Notes: generated by a model from the letters alone, not told the origin. Counted from the first letter of the stretch, positions 3,296 through 54,575 are shown. The stretch is 64,000 nt of DNA from an uncultured bacterium (GCA_964624625.1 CAZUXW010000003.1:1728-65727), one strand, 5' to 3'. Translations and numbers: made by a program.

Positions 3296-5119
3296 TTAGT
3301 GAGCGGAAGCCGTCGTCAACACCCCAGGTCCCGGAGGATGAGGAGTGCGCCAACCAGGCTCGATCGATTGAGACTCGACCAAAGCTTTTCCCTTTATGAC
3401 TTCCTTGATGCCCTCGACGATGTGTTTCGGCTCGAAGGGTTCGCCGTCGTATTTACGGACATTGCCGTGGGCCGTGATGCCTGTTTCGGCGCGCAGATGG
3501 CGGGCGAACTGACCCGACTTGTTCATCTCCACGACGATGATCTTTTTCTTATTTTTCAACAGGTCGGTGATTTCCTTTTCCTGGAAAGGAATCAGGTACT
3601 TGACCGAGAGGTGGTTCACCTTGATTCCCTCTTTATTCAAGCGTTCAATGGCTTCGCTGGCGGCGCCATAAGTGGAGCCGTAGGTAACCACGGTGGTGTC
3701 AGCGTCCGCCGGGCCTTCCAAAACCGGTTTGGGAAGGGCGGCCAAAACACCCTGCATTTTGCGTTCGCGTTTGTCCACCACCCGCTTGCGGGTGACGGGA
3801 TCGGTGTAAACATCCGAGATCGTAACGCCGTCGTCATCGTGTTCATCGGTGGCCGAGACATACAAGTGGTTCGGCAGTCCGGGGATCGCCCGGGGAGAAA
3901 CGCCCGAGGGAGTATCTTTATAACGCAGGTAGGACTTCGGTTTACCGTCATCCTCAAAGATCATTTCGCCCCGATCGATCTTGAACTCGCGGTCCAAGAA
4001 GGATGTTTCCAGGGTCATATGACCTTCGCTCATTAAAAGATCCGAGAGGATCAGGACCGGCATCTGGAACTTCTCGGCGTAGTTGAAGGCTTCTTCCATC
4101 GTGTTGTAGCAATCGGCGATGGAAGTGGGGGCGATGATCACGCGCTGGAAGTCTCCCTGGGAGGCTCCGATCGCCTGGTTCAAGTCGCCTTGTTCCTGCT
4201 TGGTCGGAAGTCCGGTGGAAGGTCCGCCGCGCATGACGTTGATCATGACGACTGGGATTTCCATGATGGAAGCCATACCGATCGCCTCGGTCATGAGGGC
4301 GAATCCCCCGCCCGAAGTGGCGCACATGGCGCGCACGCCCATTTGGCCGGCGCCGATGGTCATGTTGGCGACGCCGATCTCATCCTCAACCTGACGGACG
4401 CAGATGCCCAATTCCTTGCCATGGCCTGCCATCCAGTGAAGAACTCCCGTCGCCGGGCTCATGGGATAAGCGCAATAGACCTTGCAGCCGGCGTTGGCGG
4501 CGCCAAGCGCGAGCATATTGTTTCCATGGACCATGGCCAGCTTGGCCGGGGTCTTTCCGAGAGGGTTCGCGATTTTTTTGTAAGTCTTGACCGCGAAATC
4601 GAACCCCGCCTTGGCCGCGTCAATGTTCGCCTTAACGACCTGGGGTTTCTTCTTAAAGGTGTGCTCAAACACGGAGGAGAGGGACTCGAATTCCAACCCA
4701 AGCAACCCCGTCAAGGCTCCGAGAGCCACGGTGTTTTGCATGATCGGAAGGGCGTCTTTACCCGCCAACTCAAAAACAGGAAGGGGGCAGAGCTGCACGC
4801 CCTCGGGAGCCTTGCCTGGCTTGACCTTGTCGCCGTTATAAACACAGAGACCGCCGCTTTTGAGTTCCTGCAGATGGCGGTCCATCGAATCCTGGTTCAA
4901 GGCGATCATGGCGCCCACTTGGTCGCCGACATTAGTGACTTTTTTGGTGGAAATGCGCTGGCGGATCCAGGAATGCCCGCCGCGGATCAGGGATTGATAG
5001 CTGGTGTAAACATAAACATGCAGGCCTTGCCGGGCGCTGGCGAGAGCCAAGTTATCAGCCGTGGAAGCGCCTCCGTCTCCGGCCGCTCCGCCGATTCCAA
5101 TAATAATTTCATTTTCCAT
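3296..5119 (-). CDS. korA: 2-oxoacid:ferredoxin oxidoreductase alpha subunit with an N-terminal gamma-like domain (fused gamma-alpha)
   Basis: N-terminus IGIGGAAGDGGASTADNLALASARQG is gamma-subunit-like; the rest is a large alpha domain (GxGQMGVRA..SGGGFALMTE). Start reassigned to ATG 5119 (MENEIIIG), with GGAGGA 7 nt upstream. The ORF-finder start at 5137 overlaps that RBS. Confidence 0.8.
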   Translation of the reverse strand: MENEIIIGIGGAAGDGGASTADNLALASARQGLHVYVYTSYQSLIRGGHSWIRQRISTKKVTNVGDQVGAMIALNQDSMDRHLQELKSGGLCVYNGDKVKPGKAPEGVQLCPLPVFELAGKDALPIMQNTVALGALTGLLGLEFESLSSVFEHTFKKKPQVVKANIDAAKAGFDFAVKTYKKIANPLGKTPAKLAMVHGNNMLALGAANAGCKVYCAYPMSPATGVLHWMAGHGKELGICVRQVEDEIGVANMTIGAGQMGVRAMCATSGGGFALMTEAIGMASIMEIPVVMINVMRGGPSTGLPTKQEQGDLNQAIGASQGDFQRVIIAPTSIADCYNTMEEAFNYAEKFQMPVLILSDLLMSEGHMTLETSFLDREFKIDRGEMIFEDDGKPKSYLRYKDTPSGVSPRAIPGLPNHLYVSATDEHDDDGVTISDVYTDPVTRKRVVDKRERKMQGVLAALPKPVLEGPADADTTVVTYGSTYGAASEAIERLNKEGIKVNHLSVKYLIPFQEKEITDLLKNKKKIIVVEMNKSGQFARHLRAETGITAHGNVRKYDGEPFEPKHIVEGIKEVIKGKALVESQSIEPGWRTPHPPGPGVLTTASAH

Positions 5120-5383
5120 TGAAAACTTCCTCCTCAAAATTAATAAATAAGTCGCAAAACCGCCGGGGATTTAAGTCCGTCATTTCTCAAGTTCATCCGT
5201 TTTGGCGAGAAAATGACTCGTCCCGCCTTTTGTTGGATTCGGAATGCATCCTCAACCTTGGCAGGAAAAGCATGATACCCGTTGGAGCTTGGAATTCGCA
5301 ACACTTTTGAGGAATAACCAACCTGGAAAATCATTAAAATGAAGGGTATTTCAGCGGGTTGAAGTTCCCCGGAAGCGGTGATT

Positions 5384-5819
5384 TTATGAAACTTTTACCG
5401 CTATTTTCCCGAAAAAGTTCCGGTCCAACCTGCATTGTTGGGCTTCCTTGGTTTGGTCCAGTGAAAAAATTTTACCCACCACTGGTTTCAAACGGCCTTC
5501 TTCCGCCCATTGAACGGCTTTTTTCAACCCGGCCAAGGACTCCATGTAATTGCCGAAGATCGACCGGTTTTTAGAAAACAGAGCCCCCAGGTTCAAGTTG
5601 ATGTCCGGCCCCGAGGTGGATCCGCAGTTCCCCAACCGTCCCCCGGGAGCCAGGCAGCGGAGGGATTGGACAAAAACTTCAGGGCCAATAGGCTCAAAGG
5701 CCTCCTCGACGCCCTGGGCGGTTAATTCCCCCCGCCCAAGCCCCGGGCTCGGGCGACGGCAGGTCCAGGGATTTTAAAACTTCAAAACCACCCTGTTGTT
5801 CGAAAACGACGGCTTTCAT
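5384..5819 (-). pseudogene. decayed quinone oxidoreductase / zinc-ADH-family remnant (frameshifted, internally deleted)
   Basis: ATG at 5819 gives MKAVVFEQQGGFEVLKSLDLPSPEPG (canonical QOR N-terminus), then runs into a stop. The +1 frame continues ...GELTAQGVEEAFEPIGPEVFVQSLRCLAPGGRLGNCGSTSG...FGKIAVKVS (QOR C-terminal region). Total span ~145 codons against ~325 for intact members, so the Rossmann/GxGxxG region is missing. The frame switch lies at a GGGCGGGGGG tract (~5722-5735). Confidence 0.6.
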
Positions 5820-5825
5820 GGGGGG

Positions 5826-6707
5826 TTATTTCGACGCCTCGGCGTTGTCCAGGAGGGCGGTGGATTTGGCCTGGTCCAGCTTTAAACCTTTTCCATAAAC
5901 CTCAACCGCGACCAAACCCTTGCCCCTGGCGTAGTAGGAAATAATGGTGGAGGATTTTGTTTTTTCCGTGACGATGACGCAATCCGGGTAGATTTTTTGG
6001 TAGACCTGGGCCTGTCCAAAGGAAGCCTTAAAATAATTTCCCCCGCCCATCCAGCGGGCAACCGCCCCCTTGGCTGGAAATTGAAAAACAAAGTCATCGG
6101 TAAGGGCCTGGTCGTCCGTGAAGGTATGGGTGACCTTGCCGCCCGAAAGGGAGTATTTTTCCAAAACGGTTTTCCCCTGATCATTGACTTGAAATGTGGC
6201 CTGAAGGGATCCGTCGGACGACGTTTCCTGGGCCAGGCATTCCACGGACCGGATTTTTTTCGCTTCCTCCCCGGGGGCCGCCTTTAAATACTCATAGGAC
6301 CACTTCGTCCCCTTGAGGGTGGGAAAATACTCGGCGAATAGCCCCAGTGACGCAACCGGAACAGCCGCGGCATTTTTCTTGGTTTCCGGGGAGGGAGTTG
6401 GGGTTAAGGCCGCCGCCGCCATGGTCGGAGTGGGAACGAGGGCGGGGGTTTTCACAACCGCGGGGGTCGGGGTGGATTGGGATTCGTCCAAAACCTTGAG
6501 GATGGACTGGGCTTGGGCGGAGGGGCCCGTCACGGCGTTGGAGGCGGCCGGCAACGACACGGGGGTCAGTTGGTCCAAGTCCAAGGGGGGGGGCAGAACG
6601 TCCATGCCGTCGCCTGTATTCAGCGGCACGGGAGGTTTCAATTCGTCGGCCCAGGCGCTTGGCATCCACAGGAGAATGATCGCGAGGCATATTAAGTTTC
6701 GATACAT
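5826..6707 (-). CDS. secreted protein with signal peptide and Pro/Thr-rich linker
   Basis: MYRNLICLAIILLWMPSAWA|DEL signal peptide; TPTPAVVKTPALVPTPTMAAAALTPTPSP linker; C-terminal globular part with no recognised motifs. Start taken at the internal ATG (6707). Confidence 0.55.
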   Translation of the reverse strand: MYRNLICLAIILLWMPSAWADELKPPVPLNTGDGMDVLPPPLDLDQLTPVSLPAASNAVTGPSAQAQSILKVLDESQSTPTPAVVKTPALVPTPTMAAAALTPTPSPETKKNAAAVPVASLGLFAEYFPTLKGTKWSYEYLKAAPGEEAKKIRSVECLAQETSSDGSLQATFQVNDQGKTVLEKYSLSGGKVTHTFTDDQALTDDFVFQFPAKGAVARWMGGGNYFKASFGQAQVYQKIYPDCVIVTEKTKSSTIISYYARGKGLVAVEVYGKGLKLDQAKSTALLDNAEASK

Positions 6708-45373: not shown

Positions 45374-46186
45374 ATGGGATTACTTTCAGGGAAAAAAGCC
45401 TTTATTTTCGGCGTCGCCAACGACCGGTCCATCGCCTGGGGCATCGCCAAAGCCTTGCACGCGGAAGGCGCGGAGGTGGGTTTTAATTTCCTGGGAGAAG
45501 CCCTGGAAAAACGCGTCCGGCCCTTGGCGGATTCATTAGGCGCCAAACTCATTCTTCCCTGCGATGTTTCCAAAGATGAGGAAATCAACGCCTTATATAA
45601 GAAGGTAGCCGAAACTTGGGGCAAGTTTGACATCCTGATCCATTGTATCGCCTTCGCGAATAAAGACGATTTAACCGGAGCCTTTTCCAACACCAGCCGG
45701 GCGGGATTCCACTTAGCCATGGATATCTCCGCTTACAGCCTCATTGCCATCACCAAACCAGCGGTTCCGCTTTTAAACGAAGGGGCCAGTATTATCGCTT
45801 TGACCTATTACGGTTCCGTGAAGGTGATTCCCAATTACAACATTATGGGCGTGGCGAAAGCCGCCCTCGAAAGCACGGTGCGTTATTTGGCTTATGATTT
45901 GGGACCCAAGGGCATCCGGGTCAACGCCATCTCCGCCGGACCCATCAAGACTCTGGCCGCCTCCGCCGTAGGCGGGATTAAGACCATGTTGAAGGCCGCT
46001 GGTGAAATGACCCCCTTGAAGCGGAATGTGTCCCAAGACGAGGTGGGAACCACGGCCACCTACCTGGCCAGTTCCTGGTCCTCGGGCGTGACGGGCGAGG
46101 TGATTTACGTGGACGCCGGGGGCAATATCGTGGGCATGCACTTTGACGAGAAAAAAGAAGAGGGTTCCGCTCCCGCCGCTACTTGA
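45374..46186 (+). CDS. fabI: enoyl-[acyl-carrier-protein] reductase (NADH), FabI
   Basis: GKKAFIFGVANDRSIAWGIA Rossmann motif, Y-x6-K (YNIMGVAKAALE) catalytic motif, SAGPIKT. GGAGG 7 nt upstream of ATG 45374. The ORF-finder's 5' extension overlaps the Dabb gene. Confidence 0.88.
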   Translation: MGLLSGKKAFIFGVANDRSIAWGIAKALHAEGAEVGFNFLGEALEKRVRPLADSLGAKLILPCDVSKDEEINALYKKVAETWGKFDILIHCIAFANKDDLTGAFSNTSRAGFHLAMDISAYSLIAITKPAVPLLNEGASIIALTYYGSVKVIPNYNIMGVAKAALESTVRYLAYDLGPKGIRVNAISAGPIKTLAASAVGGIKTMLKAAGEMTPLKRNVSQDEVGTTATYLASSWSSGVTGEVIYVDAGGNIVGMHFDEKKEEGSAPAAT

Positions 46187-46595
46187 GGTCCTGGGGTATG
46201 AAGCAATAGGACATGCTCTTGATCTTGTCCACCGTCAAATGTCGGAACACGACGTGCCACCTAAAAGTTTCTTCCGAATCTGAAATGGCGACCCTGCTGA
46301 TTTCAAATTGACCCAGGGACGCCAGTTCCCCTCCCGGCAAGGGCACCGAATAGTCCACCGTTAGGACCCAGGTTTGGGCCTCACTGAAGGCCAGGGTGTG
46401 AAGCCCTGAGCAGTCCAATGCCCTTCCAAAACTTTCCGAGAAAGCCAAAAGCTCCACCGCGTCCTTCGGCCAGCGGTTTTTTTCCATCCTGAAAACCTGG
46501 ATCATCGGGACGATTTGCTCGAAATGCAATTCTTCCTGCGTCATGTCGGCCTCCTGAAAGACCTTGGGGGTTGGGATTGTCCTGGAAGAGTTCAA
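46179..46595 (-). CDS. hypothetical protein (138 aa)
   Basis: ORF overlapping the radC stop by 4 nt. No recognised motifs. Confidence 0.4.
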   Translation of the reverse strand: MNSSRTIPTPKVFQEADMTQEELHFEQIVPMIQVFRMEKNRWPKDAVELLAFSESFGRALDCSGLHTLAFSEAQTWVLTVDYSVPLPGGELASLGQFEISRVAISDSEETFRWHVVFRHLTVDKIKSMSYCFIPQDLK

Positions 46596-47407
46596 GCCAA
46601 TAACCCTGCCTGGCGGAATGAAAAATGTCCTTCCGTCGTTAAGATCAGGTGGTCATGAACAGTGATTCCCATGGCCCGGGAAGCGGTGAGAATCTGCCGG
46701 GTCAATTGCTTATCCCCCTCGGACGGTTCCAAACTTCCCGCCGGATGGTTGTGGGCGAGAATGAGCCCCGTCGCATGGAGCTCCAACGAGCGCTTGATAA
46801 TTTCGCGCGGGTAGACCGCCGTATGGTCCACCGTGCCTTCTTGCAGGTGCTCGAAGGCCAGCAGATGGTTGCGGTGGTCCAAAAAAAGGGCGGTAAAGAC
46901 TTCCCGGGGCCTGCTTCCGATTTGCTCCCGGAGAAAGGACGCCACGTCGTCCGGGCTGGCGATAACCCTTCCCCTTTTAAAATCCTCCCGGGGAACCATC
47001 CGGTATAAGTCCCCCATGGCCTTTAAATGAAGGGCGCTTTGGGGCGGCAGCCCTCCCAGGGTTTGAAGGGTGGTGATATCCGAGTCCAGGATCCTCCGGA
47101 TATTCTTGAAAACCGAAAGAAGTTTTTTCGCGTAGGGTTTGGTATCCCGGTGGGGAATGGAGAAGGAAAGCAGCAGCTCCAAAAGCTCGTAGTCCTGAAG
47201 CGCCCTGGCCCCCAGGGTCGCGTACCTTTCCTTCAAACGGCGCCGGTGGCCTAAATAATCGGGATGCTCCCCTTTTAAATCCAACGCCAGGGCCGGCTCA
47301 TGGGCATCGGCCCCCGGCCCCTTGGGGTTTGGGGGCGGGAAGGCGGGGGCCGCTTTTTCCCGGCAACCGGGCAATTCCTTTGTGTTTTGAAGCTCCATTT
47401 CCACCAT
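46592..47407 (-). CDS. radC: RadC-family JAB/MPN-domain protein
   Basis: C-terminal HNHPAGSLEPSEGDKQLT (JAMM-like H-x-H...S..D motif) with an upstream helix-hairpin-helix region. Has an N-terminal extension. Confidence 0.8.
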   Translation of the reverse strand: MVEMELQNTKELPGCREKAAPAFPPPNPKGPGADAHEPALALDLKGEHPDYLGHRRRLKERYATLGARALQDYELLELLLSFSIPHRDTKPYAKKLLSVFKNIRRILDSDITTLQTLGGLPPQSALHLKAMGDLYRMVPREDFKRGRVIASPDDVASFLREQIGSRPREVFTALFLDHRNHLLAFEHLQEGTVDHTAVYPREIIKRSLELHATGLILAHNHPAGSLEPSEGDKQLTRQILTASRAMGITVHDHLILTTEGHFSFRQAGLLA

Positions 47408-47425
47408 GTTCGTCCTCCTTTTTTG

Positions 47426-47468
47426 CTTGACGAAGAATACACTCGTATACTAGTATACAACCGTATTC
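47426..47468. promoter_or_regulatory. candidate LexA operator overlapping a sigma70-like promoter: GAATAC-N4-GTATACTAGTATAC-N4-GTATTC
   Basis: Perfect 14-bp palindrome GTATACTAGTATAC (47445-47458) flanked by GAATAC (47435-47440) and GTATTC (47463-47468). TTGACG (47426-47431) and TATACT (47447-47452) look like -35/-10 elements directed toward lexA. The lexA ATG is at 47501. Confidence 0.5.
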
Positions 47469-47500
47469 TTATTCAACTACGAAATTCACGAGGGGGATTT

Positions 47501-48118
47501 ATGGCGCCATCCGACGAAAACTTAACCGACATCCAACGATTGGTGCTCCAGTATGTCCAGAACCGCCTCACCCAGGACCACCGCCCGCCGACCGTGCGGG
47601 AAGTAATGCGCCACTTCAAATGGAATTCCCCCCAAAGCGCCCGTAAACATCTTTTGGCTTTGGAGGAAAAAGGCTATCTGGAAAGGGAAGACCGAACGGC
47701 GAGGGGTTTGAAGGTTTCCGGCGATTCCTCCGGCGGTCTTTCCATCCCCATTTTAGGGAAAGTCGCGGCTGGTTTGCCGCTGTTGGCTGAGGAAAACCGC
47801 GAGGGAACCATGGTGGTGGATCAGGCCATGTCCCGGGGAGGCCGGAACCTATTCGCCTTGACGGTCCGCGGCGATTCGATGGTCAACGCCCATATTCTTT
47901 CGGGGGATAAAGTGATCGTCCAACAAACGACCCACGCCAATCCCGGGGAAATCGTGGTGGCGTTGATTGAGGGAGAGGCCACGGTCAAGACTTTCCGCAA
48001 AACCGCCTCCAAGGTGATCTTGGAACCGGCCAATCCCAAGTACAAGGATATCGTGGTCAACGAGGGCCAGGATTTCCGGATTATCGGCAAGGTCGTCGGG
48101 GTCTTCAGTCCCCGGTAA
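47501..48118 (+). CDS. lexA: LexA repressor
   Basis: N-terminal winged-HTH (LTDIQRLVLQYVQNRL...PTVREV), C-terminal S24 peptidase with GDSM (Ser) and VKTFRK (Lys) dyad. AGGGGG RBS. Confidence 0.88.
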   Translation: MAPSDENLTDIQRLVLQYVQNRLTQDHRPPTVREVMRHFKWNSPQSARKHLLALEEKGYLEREDRTARGLKVSGDSSGGLSIPILGKVAAGLPLLAEENREGTMVVDQAMSRGGRNLFALTVRGDSMVNAHILSGDKVIVQQTTHANPGEIVVALIEGEATVKTFRKTASKVILEPANPKYKDIVVNEGQDFRIIGKVVGVFSPR

Positions 48119-48173
48119 AAACAGCCGCTGGCTGTCAAAGCCCCGCTCGCGGCAAAATCCCTCAAAATCCTAA

Positions 48174-48686
48174 ATGAACCTTCAAGGAACAGTTATGTCC
48201 GATCTCCCCGCGATTCAGGTCTCGGTTGTTCAGGAAATACAATCCGGCTATTCCGCTCCCTTTCGAGAGATGGTTTACGAGGTTTCCTTACGAACCGCCG
48301 CCTACAGCGATTGGTTAAAAAAAATAAACGGCGCCCACCGCCTCCTTCAAGCCTTGCTGCAAGGCCAAATGATGGGGCAATATCAACTTTTGGATTTTAT
48401 CATTCAGCCGGACGGACTATTTACCAGGGTCACGTTGAAAAACGGTTCCTCCTTGTCCGACTTCTTAAATTGGGTCAAAGAAAAATCCATCCCCGCCGGC
48501 GAACCTTCCCGGACCTTTTGGAACGATGAGCTTCAATGGATCAAGCTGGTGCCGCCGGACCGGCTCGCCGAATCCACCAGGTTGTTTCTTCAAAAAGCGG
48601 AAAGCCTGCACCGGGAAGTCCACCTGACCGAAAGTGGCCCGCCGGAGCTCTTCTTTTTCTACCGGGACCAGCGTTTCACCTCCTAA
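48174..48686 (+). CDS. hypothetical protein (170 aa), between lexA and the radical-SAM gene
   Basis: Same strand, 55 bp after lexA. No recognised motifs. An alternative ATG at 48195 has AAGGA upstream. Confidence 0.45.
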   Translation: MNLQGTVMSDLPAIQVSVVQEIQSGYSAPFREMVYEVSLRTAAYSDWLKKINGAHRLLQALLQGQMMGQYQLLDFIIQPDGLFTRVTLKNGSSLSDFLNWVKEKSIPAGEPSRTFWNDELQWIKLVPPDRLAESTRLFLQKAESLHREVHLTESGPPELFFFYRDQRFTS

Positions 48687-48709
48687 AAATTGTTCCGGCG
48701 GTTTTTTAA

Positions 48710-49684
48710 ATGCCCGATCCTTTTCTTTCCACTTCCTTATCGCCCTCTTACGTCCAAGGGGACGACAACCCCCGGGAGGTGGAATATATCGAGATCCAGG
48801 TCAAATCCGCCCTCCATCACACCCGTCTTCCCTACAGCCCCAAACCCTTTTATTACAGCTTGAACCTCTACCGCGGATGCCGCCACGGCTGCCCCTATTG
48901 TTTCGCCCGCTATACCCATTGGTTCCTGGGTTTCCAGAACGCCTTCGACTTTCAGCGCAAGATACAAGTAAAAGTCAATCTATTGGAGGTTTTGGAAAGG
49001 GAATTGGCCCAACCCCGGAGGAAAAAAGACTGGGTGAGCCTGGGAGCCGTCACCGATCCCTACCAGCCGGCCGAAAAAAAATACGGATTGGCCAGGGGCG
49101 CCTTCAAATTGCTGGCCCAATACGCCTGGCCCGCGGTTTTTTCCACCAAATCGGATTTAGTCGTCAGGGATTTGGATGTGTTAAAGGAATTGGTCGGCCG
49201 CGCCAATGGCGGAGTGGCCATGACGATGACAACCCTGGATCCCCAGCTTCAAAAGTGGCTGGAGCCCCACGCGGTGTCGATCGACCGGCGGCTGGAAGCC
49301 CTCCGGCTCTTGAAAAAAGCCGGCATCCCATGCGGCATCCATTTGATGCCGATCCTGCCCTTCCTGACCGACAGCGATGAAGCCATGGAAGGCATGGTCA
49401 AAATGGGGGCCGAAATCGGCGTGGATTATTTCGTGTACAACGTCCTTCGATTGCGCGGCCAAGTCGTCAAAGGAGCCTATTATGAGGTTTTAAAAAAGGC
49501 CGACCCATCCCTCTTCCACCAAACGCTCAAGCTTTACAGCGGCAGGTCCGCCTACCCTCCGGACCCTTACCTGGCGCGGATTAAAGAAAAAATGAGTTTT
49601 TTCAGGGAAAAATGGGGGATGAAAAACCGCTGGCGCGCCGACTTCACCGAATCCCAATTGAATTTGTTCAATGAGCCAAATTAG
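48710..49684 (+). CDS. radical SAM protein, spore-photoproduct-lyase-like (SplB / DNA-photolyase family)
   Basis: CRHGCPYC (CxxxCxxC radical-SAM motif) near the N-terminus. Size and overall pattern are like SplB-type radical-SAM DNA repair enzymes. Confidence 0.6.
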   Translation: MPDPFLSTSLSPSYVQGDDNPREVEYIEIQVKSALHHTRLPYSPKPFYYSLNLYRGCRHGCPYCFARYTHWFLGFQNAFDFQRKIQVKVNLLEVLERELAQPRRKKDWVSLGAVTDPYQPAEKKYGLARGAFKLLAQYAWPAVFSTKSDLVVRDLDVLKELVGRANGGVAMTMTTLDPQLQKWLEPHAVSIDRRLEALRLLKKAGIPCGIHLMPILPFLTDSDEAMEGMVKMGAEIGVDYFVYNVLRLRGQVVKGAYYEVLKKADPSLFHQTLKLYSGRSAYPPDPYLARIKEKMSFFREKWGMKNRWRADFTESQLNLFNEPN

Positions 49685-49714
49685 GAATTATTCTTTAAAT
49701 ACAAATTCCTAATT
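49680..49714. repeat. hairpin of the TTAGGAATT/AATTCCTAA family between convergent genes
   Basis: AATTAGGAATT (49680-49690) ... AAATTCCTAATT (49703-49714). The TAG stop of the radical-SAM gene lies inside the left arm. The NYN gene stop is at 49720. Confidence 0.6.
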
Positions 49715-49719
49715 GTCTT

Positions 49720-50307
49720 TCAGACCCCGAAAGCCATTTCCTCATCCGCGTGAGCCTTGTCCTCCGCGGTCTGGGAAGGCGGGAACACATGCGTCGCGTG
49801 CGAGTTAACCACCTCATCCAAGTTAAGGATTTTATCCGCGGCGCGGATCATTTCACGGCTTTGGGCGTCGGGAAAAACCGCCAGTTCCACGTGCTTTCCC
49901 AATTCCTTGACCAGCCCCATCGCGGGGGAGAAATCCTGGTCCTCGGTGACCACGATGGCCGTGTCGTAAAAATCCCGGGCCGCGTAATAAACCATGTCGG
50001 CCGCCATCCTCACATCCACGCCTTTTTCCATCCGGTGCCCTTCGCGGTTTTGGATGATCCGGCCCAGGCGGAGTTCCAGGAACGGGGTCCTGTCCAAAGA
50101 ATCAAAAAAGGACTGCTGGCTCTTGGCCTTGTCGGAAAAATGAGTCGCGTCGAACACCGCGTTGTAATAGAAGGTTCGGACCAGTTTCCGCCTGTCCCCG
50201 CACAAGGCCAGCGAGAATTGGTAATAATCAACCCGGGTCATCTTGTTGTTCCGCTTCAGGGCGAAATAAAGATTGCTGCCGTCGATAAAGACGCAGATTC
50301 GGGACAT
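49720..50307 (-). CDS. NYN-domain (LabA-like, PIN-related) protein
   Basis: MSRICVFIDGSNLYFALK N-terminus and internal acidic residues, typical of NYN/LabA domains. Confidence 0.65.
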   Translation of the reverse strand: MSRICVFIDGSNLYFALKRNNKMTRVDYYQFSLALCGDRRKLVRTFYYNAVFDATHFSDKAKSQQSFFDSLDRTPFLELRLGRIIQNREGHRMEKGVDVRMAADMVYYAARDFYDTAIVVTEDQDFSPAMGLVKELGKHVELAVFPDAQSREMIRAADKILNLDEVVNSHATHVFPPSQTAEDKAHADEEMAFGV

Positions 50308-54114: not shown

Positions 54115-54575
54115 TCGTCCCGAAAGCTTCCACCGACCGGCAGGCGGTCTTAGCCACCCTATTACGCCTGGCCTGCGGCCTCGTTTTTCTCTACGCCAGC
54201 CAGGACAAATTAGGCGAGGCGGAAAAATTCACGGGGATCCTCAAGGAATACCACATTCTTCCCCCCGTCCTCATTCCCTTGTCGGCGGTGGTCCTTCCCT
54301 GGCTGGAATTTTTTATCGGCGCTTGTCTAGTGGCGGGATTTAAGTGGCGCGGCGCGGCCCTTCTTTTTTGCGGCCTCATGGGCCTTTACTCACTGGCCCT
54401 CAGTTGGAATTTGCTGCAGGGGGTGGAAATGAATTGTGGATGCTTCTCCATGGACTCCACCGAAAAAACCACCTGGCTTTCCGTGCTGCGCGACGCAGGA
54501 TTCTTCTCCATGGGATTTTTTGTTTTGGTCACCCCGCGCACTTATTTTCCGTTGGACCGTTCCCCCCGCCCTTAA
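54111..54575 (+). CDS. MauE/DoxX-like membrane protein
   Basis: 154 aa, 4 TM, GCGCF motif. Overlaps the rhodanese gene stop by 4 nt. Confidence 0.5.
   Translation: MIVPKASTDRQAVLATLLRLACGLVFLYASQDKLGEAEKFTGILKEYHILPPVLIPLSAVVLPWLEFFIGACLVAGFKWRGAALLFCGLMGLYSLALSWNLLQGVEMNCGCFSMDSTEKTTWLSVLRDAGFFSMGFFVLVTPRTYFPLDRSPRP

What the first reader, a model, noticed from the sequence alone, without database searches (positions are those of the whole stretch)
47407..49684. SOS-like cassette lexA-orf-SplB-like radical SAM; candidate operator GTATACTAGTATAC overlaps a promoter and is divergent from radC
The 95-bp spacer between divergent radC (-) and lexA (+) holds a perfect 14-bp palindrome, GTATACTAGTATAC. 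It is nested in an outer GAATAC...GTATTC dyad and overlaps a TTGACG-N15-TATACT promoter-like element reading into lexA.

lexA is followed on the same strand by a 170-aa ORF of unknown function and a radical-SAM protein with an N-terminal CxxxCxxC motif of spore-photoproduct-lyase type.

An SOS regulon built around a radical-SAM photoproduct-lyase-like enzyme and an unknown partner would be an uncommon damage-response arrangement. The palindrome also does not match the well-known LexA box classes (CTGT-N8-ACAG, GAAC-N4-GTTC).
Basis: partly seen in the sequence, partly recalled or inferred. Interest (0 to 1): 0.6.

Follow-up and report, generated by a model that had tools for sequence, protein, structure and literature searches.

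The report
LexA operator and SOS operon, FCPU426
This is the self-repressed DNA-damage (SOS) operon of an uncultured candidate phylum: its operator is real and conserved but is a local variant of a familiar LexA box, and its radical-SAM gene is a common SOS gene, so it is a modest finding rather than a surprising one.

Summary
The sequence features are there. The window comes from candidate division FCPU426.

- **Operator conservation.** The element CTTGAC-N3/4-GAATAC-N4-GTATAC-TA-GTATAC-N4-GTATTC is present upstream of lexA in all 27 species-level FCPU426 genomes retrieved. The hexamers are almost invariant and both N4 spacers vary freely.
- **Recognition unit.** The unit is a 16-bp dyad, G(A/T)ATAC-N4-GTAT(A/T)C, present twice. 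In the most divergent lineage the boxes lie 7 nt apart, and single boxes sit in the transposase promoter of an IS1595-family element in five different contexts.
- **Relation to known boxes.** The architecture (xxAC-N4-GTxx) is that of the classical GAAC-N4-GTTC class. The half-site sequence has not been described in the literature I could search.
- **LexA.** It is complete, with the wHTH domain, the Ala-Gly cleavage site and the Ser/Lys dyad.
- **Radical-SAM protein.** It belongs to the COG1533 "SplB-like" group (Rv2578c/PA0069), already known as LexA-regulated in many phyla. It is closest in fold to spore photoproduct lyase but fails that family's sequence tests.
- **The 170-aa ORF.** This phylum-restricted family is always found immediately after lexA. 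Its predicted fold resembles IS200/RAYT HUH transposases, without the HUH or catalytic Tyr motifs.
- **Not tested.** The regulon beyond lexA could not be examined.

The parts
46592..47407 (-). radC (271 aa), divergent from lexA and probably co-regulated by the shared operator
   Evidence: PF04002 E 1e-40; NF000642 205 bits against a cutoff of 180. It is divergent from lexA in 25 of 27 FCPU426 loci. radC is listed as an SOS gene in other phyla (PMC8565304).
46179..46595 (-). orf138, unknown function, overlaps the radC stop by 4 nt and is co-oriented, so it is likely in the radC transcript
   Evidence: No Pfam or NCBIfam hit. It is syntenic but fast-evolving (25-75% identity) in 24 of 27 loci.
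47427..47432 (+). -35 hexamer TTGACG of the lexA promoter
   Evidence: Promoter scan gives TTGACG-N18-TAGTAT. CTTGAC is at or near maximal information across the 27 operator sequences aligned: the window plus L001-L026. L027 has TTGACA-N17-TAAGAT at the same place.
47435..47450 (.). LexA box 1: GAATAC-ACTC-GTATAC, lying between -35 and -10
   Evidence: The hexamers are almost invariant and the N4 spacer has 7 variants across the 27 sequences. The same 16-bp form occurs singly in IS promoters.
47451..47456 (+). -10 hexamer TAGTAT
   Evidence: It is invariant in 25 of the 27 sequences; L016 and L018 read TAGCAT.
47453..47468 (.). LexA box 2: GTATAC-AACC-GTATTC, overlapping -10 and the expected transcription start
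   Evidence: The N4 spacer has 9 variants while the hexamers are conserved.
47445..47458 (.).
   Evidence: It is absent as such in L027 and L093, where the inner half-sites are 7 nt apart.
47471..47476 (-). Possible -35 (TTGAAT on the minus strand) of a mirror-image radC promoter; with an 18-nt spacer it would use TAGTAT at 47452-47447 as -10 (inference)
   Evidence: This follows from the symmetry of the 50-nt dyad. TTCAA is only partly conserved, and the site is below the promoter-scan threshold.
47501..48118 (+). lexA (205 aa)
   Evidence: TIGR00498 198.5 bits against a cutoff of 111; PF01726 and PF00717. A90-G91, S126 and K163 align with E. coli A84-G85, S119 and K156.
48121..48135 (+). Small hairpin ACAGCC-GCT-GGCTGT in the lexA-orf170 spacer, with no T-tract
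   Evidence: Read from the sequence. It is not called as a terminator.
48195..48686 (+). orf170 (163 aa from Met8): a phylum-restricted protein with an HUH-transposase-like predicted fold that lacks the HUH and catalytic Tyr motifs
   Evidence: Only 19 representatives (2 of them spurious repeat proteins) in 1.84 billion. AF2 pLDDT 79. The top 26 Foldseek PDB hits are IS200/IS605 TnpA or RAYT. It lies directly after lexA in 21 of 27 loci and in distant L092 and L093.
48710..49684 (+). Radical-SAM protein (324 aa) of the COG1533 'SplB-like' group
   Evidence: PF04055. The best NCBIfam hits are the Rv2578c family (218 bits) and the PA0069 family (212 bits), both below cutoff. The AF2 model (pLDDT 86.5) is closest to spore photoproduct lyase, E 6e-10 and TM 0.6.
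49681..49712 (.). AT-rich 9-bp inverted repeat TTAGGAATT...AATTCCTAA between convergent rSAM and NYN genes; a possible bidirectional terminator (inference)
   Evidence: Read from the sequence. It is not called by the terminator scan, because the loop is 14 nt and there are too few G-C pairs.

Best explanation
This is the autoregulated lexA locus of a bacterium of candidate division FCPU426.

**Proposed mechanism**
- Two LexA dimers bind two adjacent 16-bp dyads with consensus G(A/T)ATAC-N4-GTAT(A/T)C, at 47435-47450 and 47453-47468.
- The dyads fill the space between the -35 (TTGACG) and the -10 (TAGTAT) and cover the transcription start, so bound LexA blocks RNA polymerase.
- By the symmetry of the region they probably also block a mirror-image radC promoter.
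- After DNA damage, RecA-stimulated self-cleavage of LexA at A90-G91 would derepress one transcript, lexA-orf170-rSAM, and probably radC-orf138.
- The radical-SAM enzyme, a COG1533 SplB-like protein, would then act on a DNA lesion by SAM-derived radical chemistry.
- orf170 would be a lineage-specific accessory protein of unknown role.

**Shown here**
- Gene identities.
- Phylum-wide conservation of the dyads with free spacers.
- A second independent target, the IS transposase promoters.
- Intact LexA catalytic residues.

**Inferred**
- That LexA is the binder.
- Co-transcription of the three genes.
- radC co-regulation.
- Any biochemical activity of orf170 or the radical-SAM protein.
For: **Footprint**
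- All 27 FCPU426 lexA loci carry the element. In 26 the arrangement is identical and all 27 sequences are distinct.
- The hexamers and the central TA are conserved, while the two N4 spacers show 7 and 9 variants.
- The left and right spacers are complementary at only 29% of positions, which is chance level. Selection is therefore on half-sites, not on a hairpin.

**Recognition unit is the N4 dyad**
- L027 and L093 keep both N4 boxes but separate them by 7 nt.
- Five copies of an ISXO2-like IS (PF12762), in different flanks, carry one GAATAC-N4-GTATAC box. It lies between a TTGAC/TTGAA -35 and the transposase start, and its spacer varies.

**LexA as the binder**
- The element overlaps the lexA promoter.
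- The LexA recognition-helix region is invariant across the 27 loci. It differs from that of Rokubacteria/Methylomirabilota LexA, whose own promoters carry TCAAC-N4-GTTGA at the same position. Syntrophomonadaceae loci show canonical (C)GAAC/AAAC-N4-GTT boxes.
- LexA has all catalytic features.

**Specificity**
- No other box with at most 1 mismatch was found in the 64-kb window or in 91 kb of additional contigs.

**Operon**
- Same strand, with gaps of 76 and 23 nt and no predicted terminator.
- Synteny is conserved across the phylum.

**Precedent**
- COG1533 radical-SAM genes and radC are known SOS genes.
- LexA-controlled IS transposases are known.
Against: - No binding or expression data exist.
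- No FCPU426 recA, uvrA, dinB or imuAB promoter could be examined, so a regulon is not demonstrated. The only non-lexA targets found are IS copies, whose host taxon is proven only for L013.
- orf170 is missing in 6 of the 27 loci (L009, L014, L019, L020, L021, L024). The radical-SAM gene is missing in 8 (L007, L013, L015, L016, L018, L020, L023, L027). The cassette is therefore not an obligate unit.
- The centre-to-centre distance of 18 bp puts the two dimers on different faces of the helix, so cooperative binding is not obvious.
- The putative radC promoter is below the scan threshold.
Confidence: 0.75

Rival explanations
1. One reading: the 14-bp palindrome GTATAC-N2-GTATAC is itself the LexA box, a new class with N2 spacing, and the outer hexamers are auxiliary.
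For: - It is a perfect palindrome, identical in 24 of the 26 FCPU426 loci retrieved that share the window's arrangement, and in the window itself. L016 and L018 read GTATACTAGCATAC. The central TA is invariant.
Against: - L027 and L093 have the inner hexamers 7 nt apart while each keeps an N4 partner.
- The IS promoters carry a single GAATAC-N4-GTATAC box with no N2 partner.
- Related LexA proteins use N4 dyads at the same promoter position.
- The invariant central TA is also explained by the -10 hexamer TAGTAT.
Confidence: 0.07
2. The dyad is bound by a factor other than LexA. One candidate is another repressor. Another is the adjacent HUH-fold orf170 protein recognising the 25+25-nt dyad as a hairpin or cruciform, as RAYT and TnpA proteins recognise REP or IS-end hairpins.
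For: - The 50-nt region folds better than shuffles, z = -3.6.
- The predicted fold of orf170 resembles hairpin-binding HUH transposases.
- No direct evidence names LexA as the binder.
Against: - Six loci lack orf170 yet keep the operator intact.
- Spacer positions show no complementarity beyond chance, 29%.
- The IS copies have only one 16-bp box and no long dyad.
- orf170 is acidic (pI 5.9) and lacks the HUH and Tyr motifs.
- lexA autoregulation with a box at this promoter position is seen in the related LexA loci.
Confidence: 0.08
3. The palindrome is a structural nucleic-acid element (an RNA leader hairpin, attenuator or terminator) rather than a protein operator.
For: - Predicted RNA hairpin of -11.8 kcal/mol, z = -3.6.
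Against: - With the predicted promoter, most of the element lies upstream of or at the transcription start.
- There is no compensatory change in the spacers.
- It matches no Rfam family.
- Both flanking genes start here, not end here.
Confidence: 0.03

Closest known systems
GAAC-N4-GTTC LexA box (Cheo box) of Firmicutes and Actinobacteria, with lexA autoregulation
   Same: - A palindromic dyad with an unconstrained 4-nt spacer and an AC...GT core, placed over the lexA promoter.
- A canonical LexA with a wHTH domain and an S24 autopeptidase domain (motif history in PMC3323433).
   Different: - The half-site is (G)(A/T)ATAC instead of (C)GAAC.
- Two boxes abut head-to-head, 18 bp centre to centre, and so create an extra 14-bp palindrome.
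- The host is an uncultured candidate phylum with no described SOS system: no paper in the library holds both 'FCPU426' and 'LexA'.
SOS-regulated COG1533 'SplB-like' radical-SAM proteins (M. tuberculosis Rv2578c, P. aeruginosa PA0069, splB of alpha/beta-Proteobacteria, Bacteroidetes, Balneolaeota)
   Same: - The best family-specific HMM hits are the Rv2578c and PA0069 families.
- JGI annotates close homologues as 'DNA repair photolyase'.
- The gene is under a LexA operator.
   Different: - Scores are below both equivalog cutoffs (218 against 430, and 212 against 360).
- Here the gene sits in the lexA transcript itself.
- It is absent from the lexA locus in 8 of 27 genomes.
Spore photoproduct lyase (SplB; PDB 4fhc, 4fhg)
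   Same: - It is the closest solved fold: E 6e-10, TM about 0.6, roughly 300 aligned columns, well ahead of other radical-SAM enzymes.
- It shares the CxxxCxYC cluster motif.
   Different: - 17% identity.
- No sequence-level hit to solved SPL chains and no TIGR00620 hit.
- No fourth invariant Cys that could stand for the H-atom-donor Cys140/141.
- The organism is not known to form spores.
Standalone ImuB-C + SplB-like radical-SAM operons (Aravind, Anand & Iyer 2013, PMC3765255)
   Same: - A small uncharacterised protein encoded next to a SplB-like radical-SAM gene in an SOS context.
   Different: - ImuB-C is described as about 80 residues and predicted to be a strand-built, SH3-like barrel.
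- orf170 is about 135 structured residues with beta-alpha-beta-beta-alpha-beta-alpha-beta order and matches HUH transposases.
- No ImuB-length protein appears among its relatives.
IS200/IS605 TnpA and REP-associated tyrosine transposases (HUH Y1 enzymes)
   Same: - The predicted fold of orf170: the top 26 Foldseek PDB hits, probability 1.0, E 1e-4 to 1e-2.
- Weak NF047646 hits in 5 of 27 family members.
   Different: - No His-x-His and no conserved Tyr in the C-terminal helix.
- Profile comparison with RAYT is negative.
- It is a single-copy syntenic gene after lexA, not in an IS or next to REPs.
LexA-controlled transposase promoters (ISCR1/2/8; PMC13393415)
   Same: - A LexA-type box lies in the promoter of an IS transposase.
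   Different: - The IS family differs (DDE ISXO2-like/IS1595).
- The box sequence differs.
- The case here is computational only.

Membership tests
LexA repressor (TIGR00498) | N-terminal LexA wHTH domain plus C-terminal S24 peptidase domain, scoring above the equivalog cutoff | tested here: met
   PF01726 62 bits and PF00717 114 bits. TIGR00498 198.5 bits against a cutoff of 110.95.
LexA repressor (TIGR00498) | Ala-Gly cleavage site and Ser/Lys catalytic dyad | tested here: met
   A90-G91, S126 and K163 align with E. coli A84-G85, S119 and K156. All are invariant in the 5-sequence alignment.
LexA repressor (TIGR00498) | Binds a dyad operator in its own promoter, and is cleaved when activated RecA is present | not testable with these tools
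   Only indirect support is available: conserved dyads over the -35/-10 region in 27 genomes.
GAAC-N4-GTTC class of LexA boxes | Inverted repeat with a 4-nt spacer of free sequence | tested here: met
   The N4 spacers show 7 and 9 variants while the hexamers are fixed. The same holds in the IS boxes.
GAAC-N4-GTTC class of LexA boxes | Half-site consensus GAAC/GTTC | tested here: not met
   The half-site is ATAC/GTAT; only the AC...GT core is shared.
GAAC-N4-GTTC class of LexA boxes | Recurrence upstream of other damage-inducible genes (recA, uvrA, dinB and others) | not testable with these tools
No further box was found in the window or in 91 kb of extra contigs. The only other targets are IS transposase promoters.
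Spore photoproduct lyase (SplB, TIGR00620) | Radical-SAM CxxxCxxC cluster motif | tested here: met
   C57, C61 and C64. C61 and C64 are invariant and C57 is conserved in at least 90% of 41 homologues.
Spore photoproduct lyase (SplB, TIGR00620) | Sequence membership in the SPL family | tested here: not met
   No TIGR00620 hit at E <= 0.01. No solved chain matched at E <= 1 by sequence.
Spore photoproduct lyase (SplB, TIGR00620) | Conserved H-atom-donor cysteine (Cys140/141) outside the cluster motif; this feature rests on my own knowledge of SPL | tested here: not met
   There is no further invariant or near-invariant Cys in the 41-sequence alignment. The only other Cys, C208, falls at an unconserved position of the alignment consensus.
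Spore photoproduct lyase (SplB, TIGR00620) | SPL-like three-dimensional fold | tested here: met
   The six SPL entries are the top Foldseek hits, E 6e-10 to 5e-9 and TM 0.58-0.64. The next-best hit has E 1.6e-7.
COG1533 / Rv2578c-PA0069 radical-SAM families | HMM score above the NCBIfam equivalog cutoff | tested here: not met
   218 bits against a cutoff of 430 (NF038135) and 212 against 360 (NF033668). These are nevertheless the two best hits and cover the full length. It is therefore a member of the broader group but of neither named equivalog.
Standalone ImuB-C domain (Aravind 2013) | Domain of about 80 residues, predicted strand-built SH3-like barrel, related to the C-terminus of ImuB | tested here: not met
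   The AF2 model is alpha/beta with 3 helices. The exhaustive profile search found no ImuB-like protein. No direct comparison with a GSU0042 sequence was possible.
HUH Y1 transposases (IS200/IS605 TnpA, RAYT) | HUH-type fold | tested here: met
HUH Y1 transposases (IS200/IS605 TnpA, RAYT) | His-hydrophobic-His metal site and catalytic Tyr on the C-terminal helix | tested here: not met
   No conserved His pair and no conserved Tyr in helix 128-151 in the 18- and 27-sequence alignments. RAYT controls show H59-x-H61 and Y115.
HUH Y1 transposases (IS200/IS605 TnpA, RAYT) | Detectable sequence homology | tested here: inconclusive
   NF047646 hits are weak: E 0.004 at best, in 5 of 27 members. hhalign against RayT alone and against a 5-sequence RAYT alignment is negative. 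The PDB profile search is negative.

The most novel reading that the evidence does not exclude
orf170 would be a domesticated, catalytically dead descendant of an IS200/RAYT-type HUH transposase. It would have become fixed across candidate phylum FCPU426 as the gene immediately downstream of lexA. That would make it a previously unrecognised SOS component, for example a structure-specific DNA binder at stalled forks or a modulator of LexA, RecA or the radical-SAM enzyme. It would operate under a LexA box variant that an IS1595-family element has also adopted to couple its transposition to DNA damage.
Probability: 0.2. Interest if true: 0.6.

Novelty: new variant of a known kind. Interest (0 to 1): 0.38.

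Why it matters
**What it provides**
- A first, testable description of the LexA operator of an uncultured candidate phylum. It yields a consensus, G(A/T)ATAC-N4-GTAT(A/T)C, that can be used to map that phylum's SOS regulon from MAGs.
- A further half-site variant, ATAC, alongside GAAC and the CAAC seen here in Rokubacteria. All keep the same N4 spacing, and each goes with a different LexA recognition-helix sequence.

**Two side results that may be worth more than the operator**
- A phylum-restricted HUH-fold protein that is locked to lexA.
- An insertion sequence that carries the host's LexA-type box in its transposase promoter.

**What is not new**
- None of this changes the general picture of the SOS response.

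Tried and rejected
**Searches for further boxes**
- In the window (up to 3 mismatches), only the two lexA boxes have at most 1 mismatch. The single 2-mismatch hit at 54246 breaks the GTA core.
- Searching all 27 loci gave one 1-mismatch hit, at L005:11216. It is not conserved and is consistent with chance.
- I extended the source contig with two look-ups. This gave 91 kb of contigs with no boxes and no SOS genes.
- A DNA-pattern scan of the metagenome collection for single boxes was not run. With only 14 specified bases, chance matches would swamp real ones.

**Tests on orf170**
- ImuB-C identity was considered because of PMC3765255. It was rejected on fold and on the absence of ImuB-like relatives.
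- Sequence tests were negative or noise: Pfam on 18 members, the PDB profile search, and hhalign against RayT and a RAYT alignment.
- The viral structure library gave only weak HUH Rep-like hits.
- Two hits of the exhaustive profile search (P0034, P0045) are repetitive proteins and were discarded.

**Other negatives**
- The RNA-element reading gave no Rfam match and no spacer covariation.
- Outside FCPU426, none of 53 other lexA loci has radC, orf170 or the radical-SAM gene within 6 kb.
- The genes downstream of orf170 in L016 are unrelated metabolic genes.

Full report
**1. What is in the sequence**

The region reads as follows.
- radC lies on the minus strand at 46592-47407. It is followed on that strand by an unannotatable orf138 (46179-46595).
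- A 93-bp spacer follows.
- On the plus strand come lexA (47501-48118), an ORF of 170 aa (48174-48686; homologues start at Met8, position 48195) and a radical-SAM gene (48710-49684).
- A NYN-domain gene converges on this cassette.

The spacer holds GTATACTAGTATAC at 47445-47458, flanked by GAATAC (47435-47440) and GTATTC (47463-47468). These lie inside a 25+25-nt dyad.

The hexamer GTATAC occurs only twice in the 64-kb window, both times here, against about 13 expected from base composition.

Three small corrections apply.
- The spacer is 93 bp, not 95.
- TATACT lies 13 nt, not 15, after TTGACG.
- The promoter scan returns TTGACG-N18-TAGTAT at 47427-47456.

**2. Origin and phylogenetic footprint**

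A scan of one genome per species with the LexA protein returned 27 loci with 71-96% identical LexA. Most are labelled candidate division FCPU426 and come from peat, bog and soil MAGs.

Synteny is conserved across them: xth, fabI, orf138 and radC on one side, then lexA-orf170-rSAM, then NYN, nudix and an aldo-keto reductase.

Every one of the 27 loci carries the element.
- In L005, L006 and L011 it lies about 150 nt further upstream of lexA.
- In L013 an insertion sequence separates it from lexA.
- Aligned with the window, the 27 sequences are all distinct. CTTGAC, the four hexamers and the central TA are at or near maximal information.
- The two 4-nt spacers show 7 and 9 different sequences.
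- The left spacer is complementary to the right one at 29% of positions, which is chance level.

This is the signature of protein recognition of half-sites. It is not the signature of a selected hairpin.

**3. The recognition unit is a 16-bp N4 dyad, present twice**

Three observations point away from the 14-bp N2 palindrome.
- In L027, the most divergent FCPU426 LexA (71% identity), and in the related metagenomic contig L093, the layout is GAATAC-ACCC-GTATAC, then 7 nt, then GTATAC-AACC-GTACAC. Both N4 boxes are kept and the N2 palindrome is gone.
- The insertion in L013 is an ISXO2-like (IS1595-family, PF12762) element.
  - It carries a single GAATAC-ACCC-GTATAC box 23 nt upstream of the transposase start.
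  - A metagenome scan with the transposase found four more copies, 70-79% identical and in different flanks.
  - Each has one GAATAC-N4-GTATAC box at the same place after a TTGAC/TTGAA -35. The spacers are GGGT, AGGC, GGGC and GGGT.
  - A 62%-identical copy has no box.
- The next-closest LexA proteins (Rokubacteria/Methylomirabilota, 42-51% identity) have TTGAC-N3-5-TCAAC-N4-GTTGA at the equivalent position of their own promoters. Syntrophomonadaceae loci show the canonical GAAC/AAAC-N4-GTT form.

The FCPU426 box is therefore a half-site variant (ATAC) within the familiar N4 architecture.

The LexA recognition-helix region is invariant in all 27 FCPU426 proteins (WNSPQSARKHLLALEEKGYL). It differs from the Rokubacteria version (VTPRAAFDHLRALERKG), in parallel with the change of half-site.

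**4. LexA**

The protein passes the equivalog model. It keeps the cleavage site and catalytic dyad: A90-G91, S126 and K163.

Box 1 fills the -35/-10 spacer. Box 2 covers the -10 and the expected start.

L027 supports the promoter assignment, with TTGACA-N17-TAAGAT directly after its box 1.

By symmetry the minus strand offers TTGAAT-N18-TAGTAT for radC. This is below the scan threshold and only partly conserved, so radC co-regulation is an inference. It is supported by reports of radC in other SOS regulons.

**5. The radical-SAM protein**

Family assignment.
- The best family-specific models are the Rv2578c and PA0069 radical-SAM families. Both are matched over their full length but below their cutoffs.
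- The family is very large, and JGI annotates close homologues as 'DNA repair photolyase'.

Published SOS regulation.
- Rv2578c has a RecA-dependent LexA ChIP-seq peak (PMC3381160).
- PA0069 is one of 15 SOS genes in P. aeruginosa.
- splB homologues are predicted or shown to be LexA targets in alpha- and beta-Proteobacteria (PMC3323433), Bacteroidetes (PMC8565304) and Balneolaeota.
- A radical-SAM protein is listed in the Gram-positive core regulon (PMC7739468).

Relation to spore photoproduct lyase.
- An AlphaFold model (pLDDT 86.5) is closest to spore photoproduct lyase among solved structures, with E 6e-10 and TM about 0.6. The next hits are two to three orders of magnitude weaker.
- It fails sequence membership of that family.
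- It has no conserved fourth cysteine.

'SplB-like' is therefore fair as a fold description. The protein groups with repair-associated families, and its presence in an SOS operon is ordinary.

**6. The 170-aa ORF**

Distribution.
- It has no Pfam family.
- An exhaustive profile search of 1.84 billion representatives found 19 proteins. Two of them are spurious repeat proteins.
- Even members at 26-34% identity lie directly after an FCPU426-type lexA.
- It evolves much faster than LexA: 26% against 71% identity in L027.

Predicted structure.
- The model (pLDDT 79, core above 90) has beta-alpha-beta-beta-alpha-beta-alpha-beta order.
- Its 26 best PDB matches are all IS200/IS605 TnpA or RAYT chains.
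- The only recurrent HMM hit is the RAYT model, and it is weak: 5 of 27 members, best E 0.004.
- Profile-profile comparison with RAYT sequences is negative.

Active-site features.
- The family has no His-x-His and no conserved Tyr in the C-terminal helix. RAYT controls show H59-x-H61 and Y115.
- By the register of the NCBIfam match and the order of secondary-structure elements, the two His positions would be occupied by G81 and F83. G81 is invariant across all 27 family members and F83 across the 18 closer ones. This placement is inference.
- The protein is acidic, with pI 5.9.

It is not the ImuB-C domain that Aravind et al. found next to SplB-like genes. I file it as an HUH-fold-like protein of unknown role, not as a transposase.

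orf170 and the radical-SAM gene are each missing independently. orf170 is absent in 6 of 27 loci and the radical-SAM gene in 8 of 27. They are therefore not obligate partners.

**7. What remains open**

No FCPU426 recA, uvr, dinB or imu promoter could be reached, so a regulon beyond lexA and the IS is untested.

Neither the window nor 91 kb of extra contigs contains further boxes. They also contain no classical SOS genes.

No paper in the library mentions FCPU426 together with LexA.

**8. Verdict**

This is a real, conserved, autoregulated lexA operon. Its operator is a new half-site variant of a known box architecture, in an uncharacterised candidate phylum.

The radical-SAM component is a known SOS gene. 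The small ORF and the box-bearing IS are the parts with some novelty.

Noticed in passing
L013:4990-5975 (box at 5027-5042); also L082:1307, L083:219, L084:1308, L085:575: An ISXO2-like (IS1595-family) insertion sequence carries a single GAATAC-N4-GTATAC box in its transposase promoter. This holds in five copies with different flanks; a 62%-identical copy (L086) lacks it. In L013 the IS sits between the lexA operator and lexA, so lexA there may be read from the box-controlled transposase promoter or from an outward IS promoter. The L013 transposase is frameshifted (ORFs 5065-5223 and 5153-5971).
   Followed up: partly
L028-L063, about 40-60 nt upstream of lexA: Rokubacteria/Methylomirabilota lexA promoters share TTGAC-N3-5-(C)TCAAC-N4-GTTGA(G). 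This looks like the LexA box of that group. I did not check whether it has been described.
   Followed up: no
L005:5880-5997, L006:200-317, L011:4520-4637: In three FCPU426 genomes about 150 nt are inserted between the operator and lexA, giving a long leader. In L005 and L006 it contains GTTC repeats (GTTCGACTGTTCGGTCCGTTTCG). A whole-locus Rfam search of L006 and L011 found no family match in it.
   Followed up: partly
window 46179-46595 (-): orf138 overlaps the radC stop by 4 nt. It is syntenic in 24 of 27 FCPU426 loci but only 25-39% identical in most, and it has no family match. It may be a second fast-evolving gene under the same operator.
   Followed up: no
window 49720-50307 (-): The convergent NYN-domain gene is more conserved than LexA across the phylum (75-96% identity). 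It stays next to the cassette even when the radical-SAM gene is deleted.
   Followed up: no
window 48195-48270 (orf170 residues 8-33): The N-terminal tail of orf170 is predicted disordered (pLDDT below 50). It nevertheless holds a Glu (E21) that is near-invariant across the family, and a Tyr (Y26) that is invariant among the closer homologues. This may be a short linear interaction motif.
   Followed up: no
L013:4690-4760: A small palindromic insert (GTCGTCATTGCGAGGAATACCCGCCGTATAGGCGGGTGGTTATGACGAAGCAAC) lies between radC and the operator in this genome only. It looks like a miniature repeat element.
   Followed up: no
window, whole: GTATAC is about six-fold under-represented in the window: 2 observed, both in the operator, against about 13 expected. 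This would fit palindrome avoidance, for example by a restriction system.
   Followed up: no
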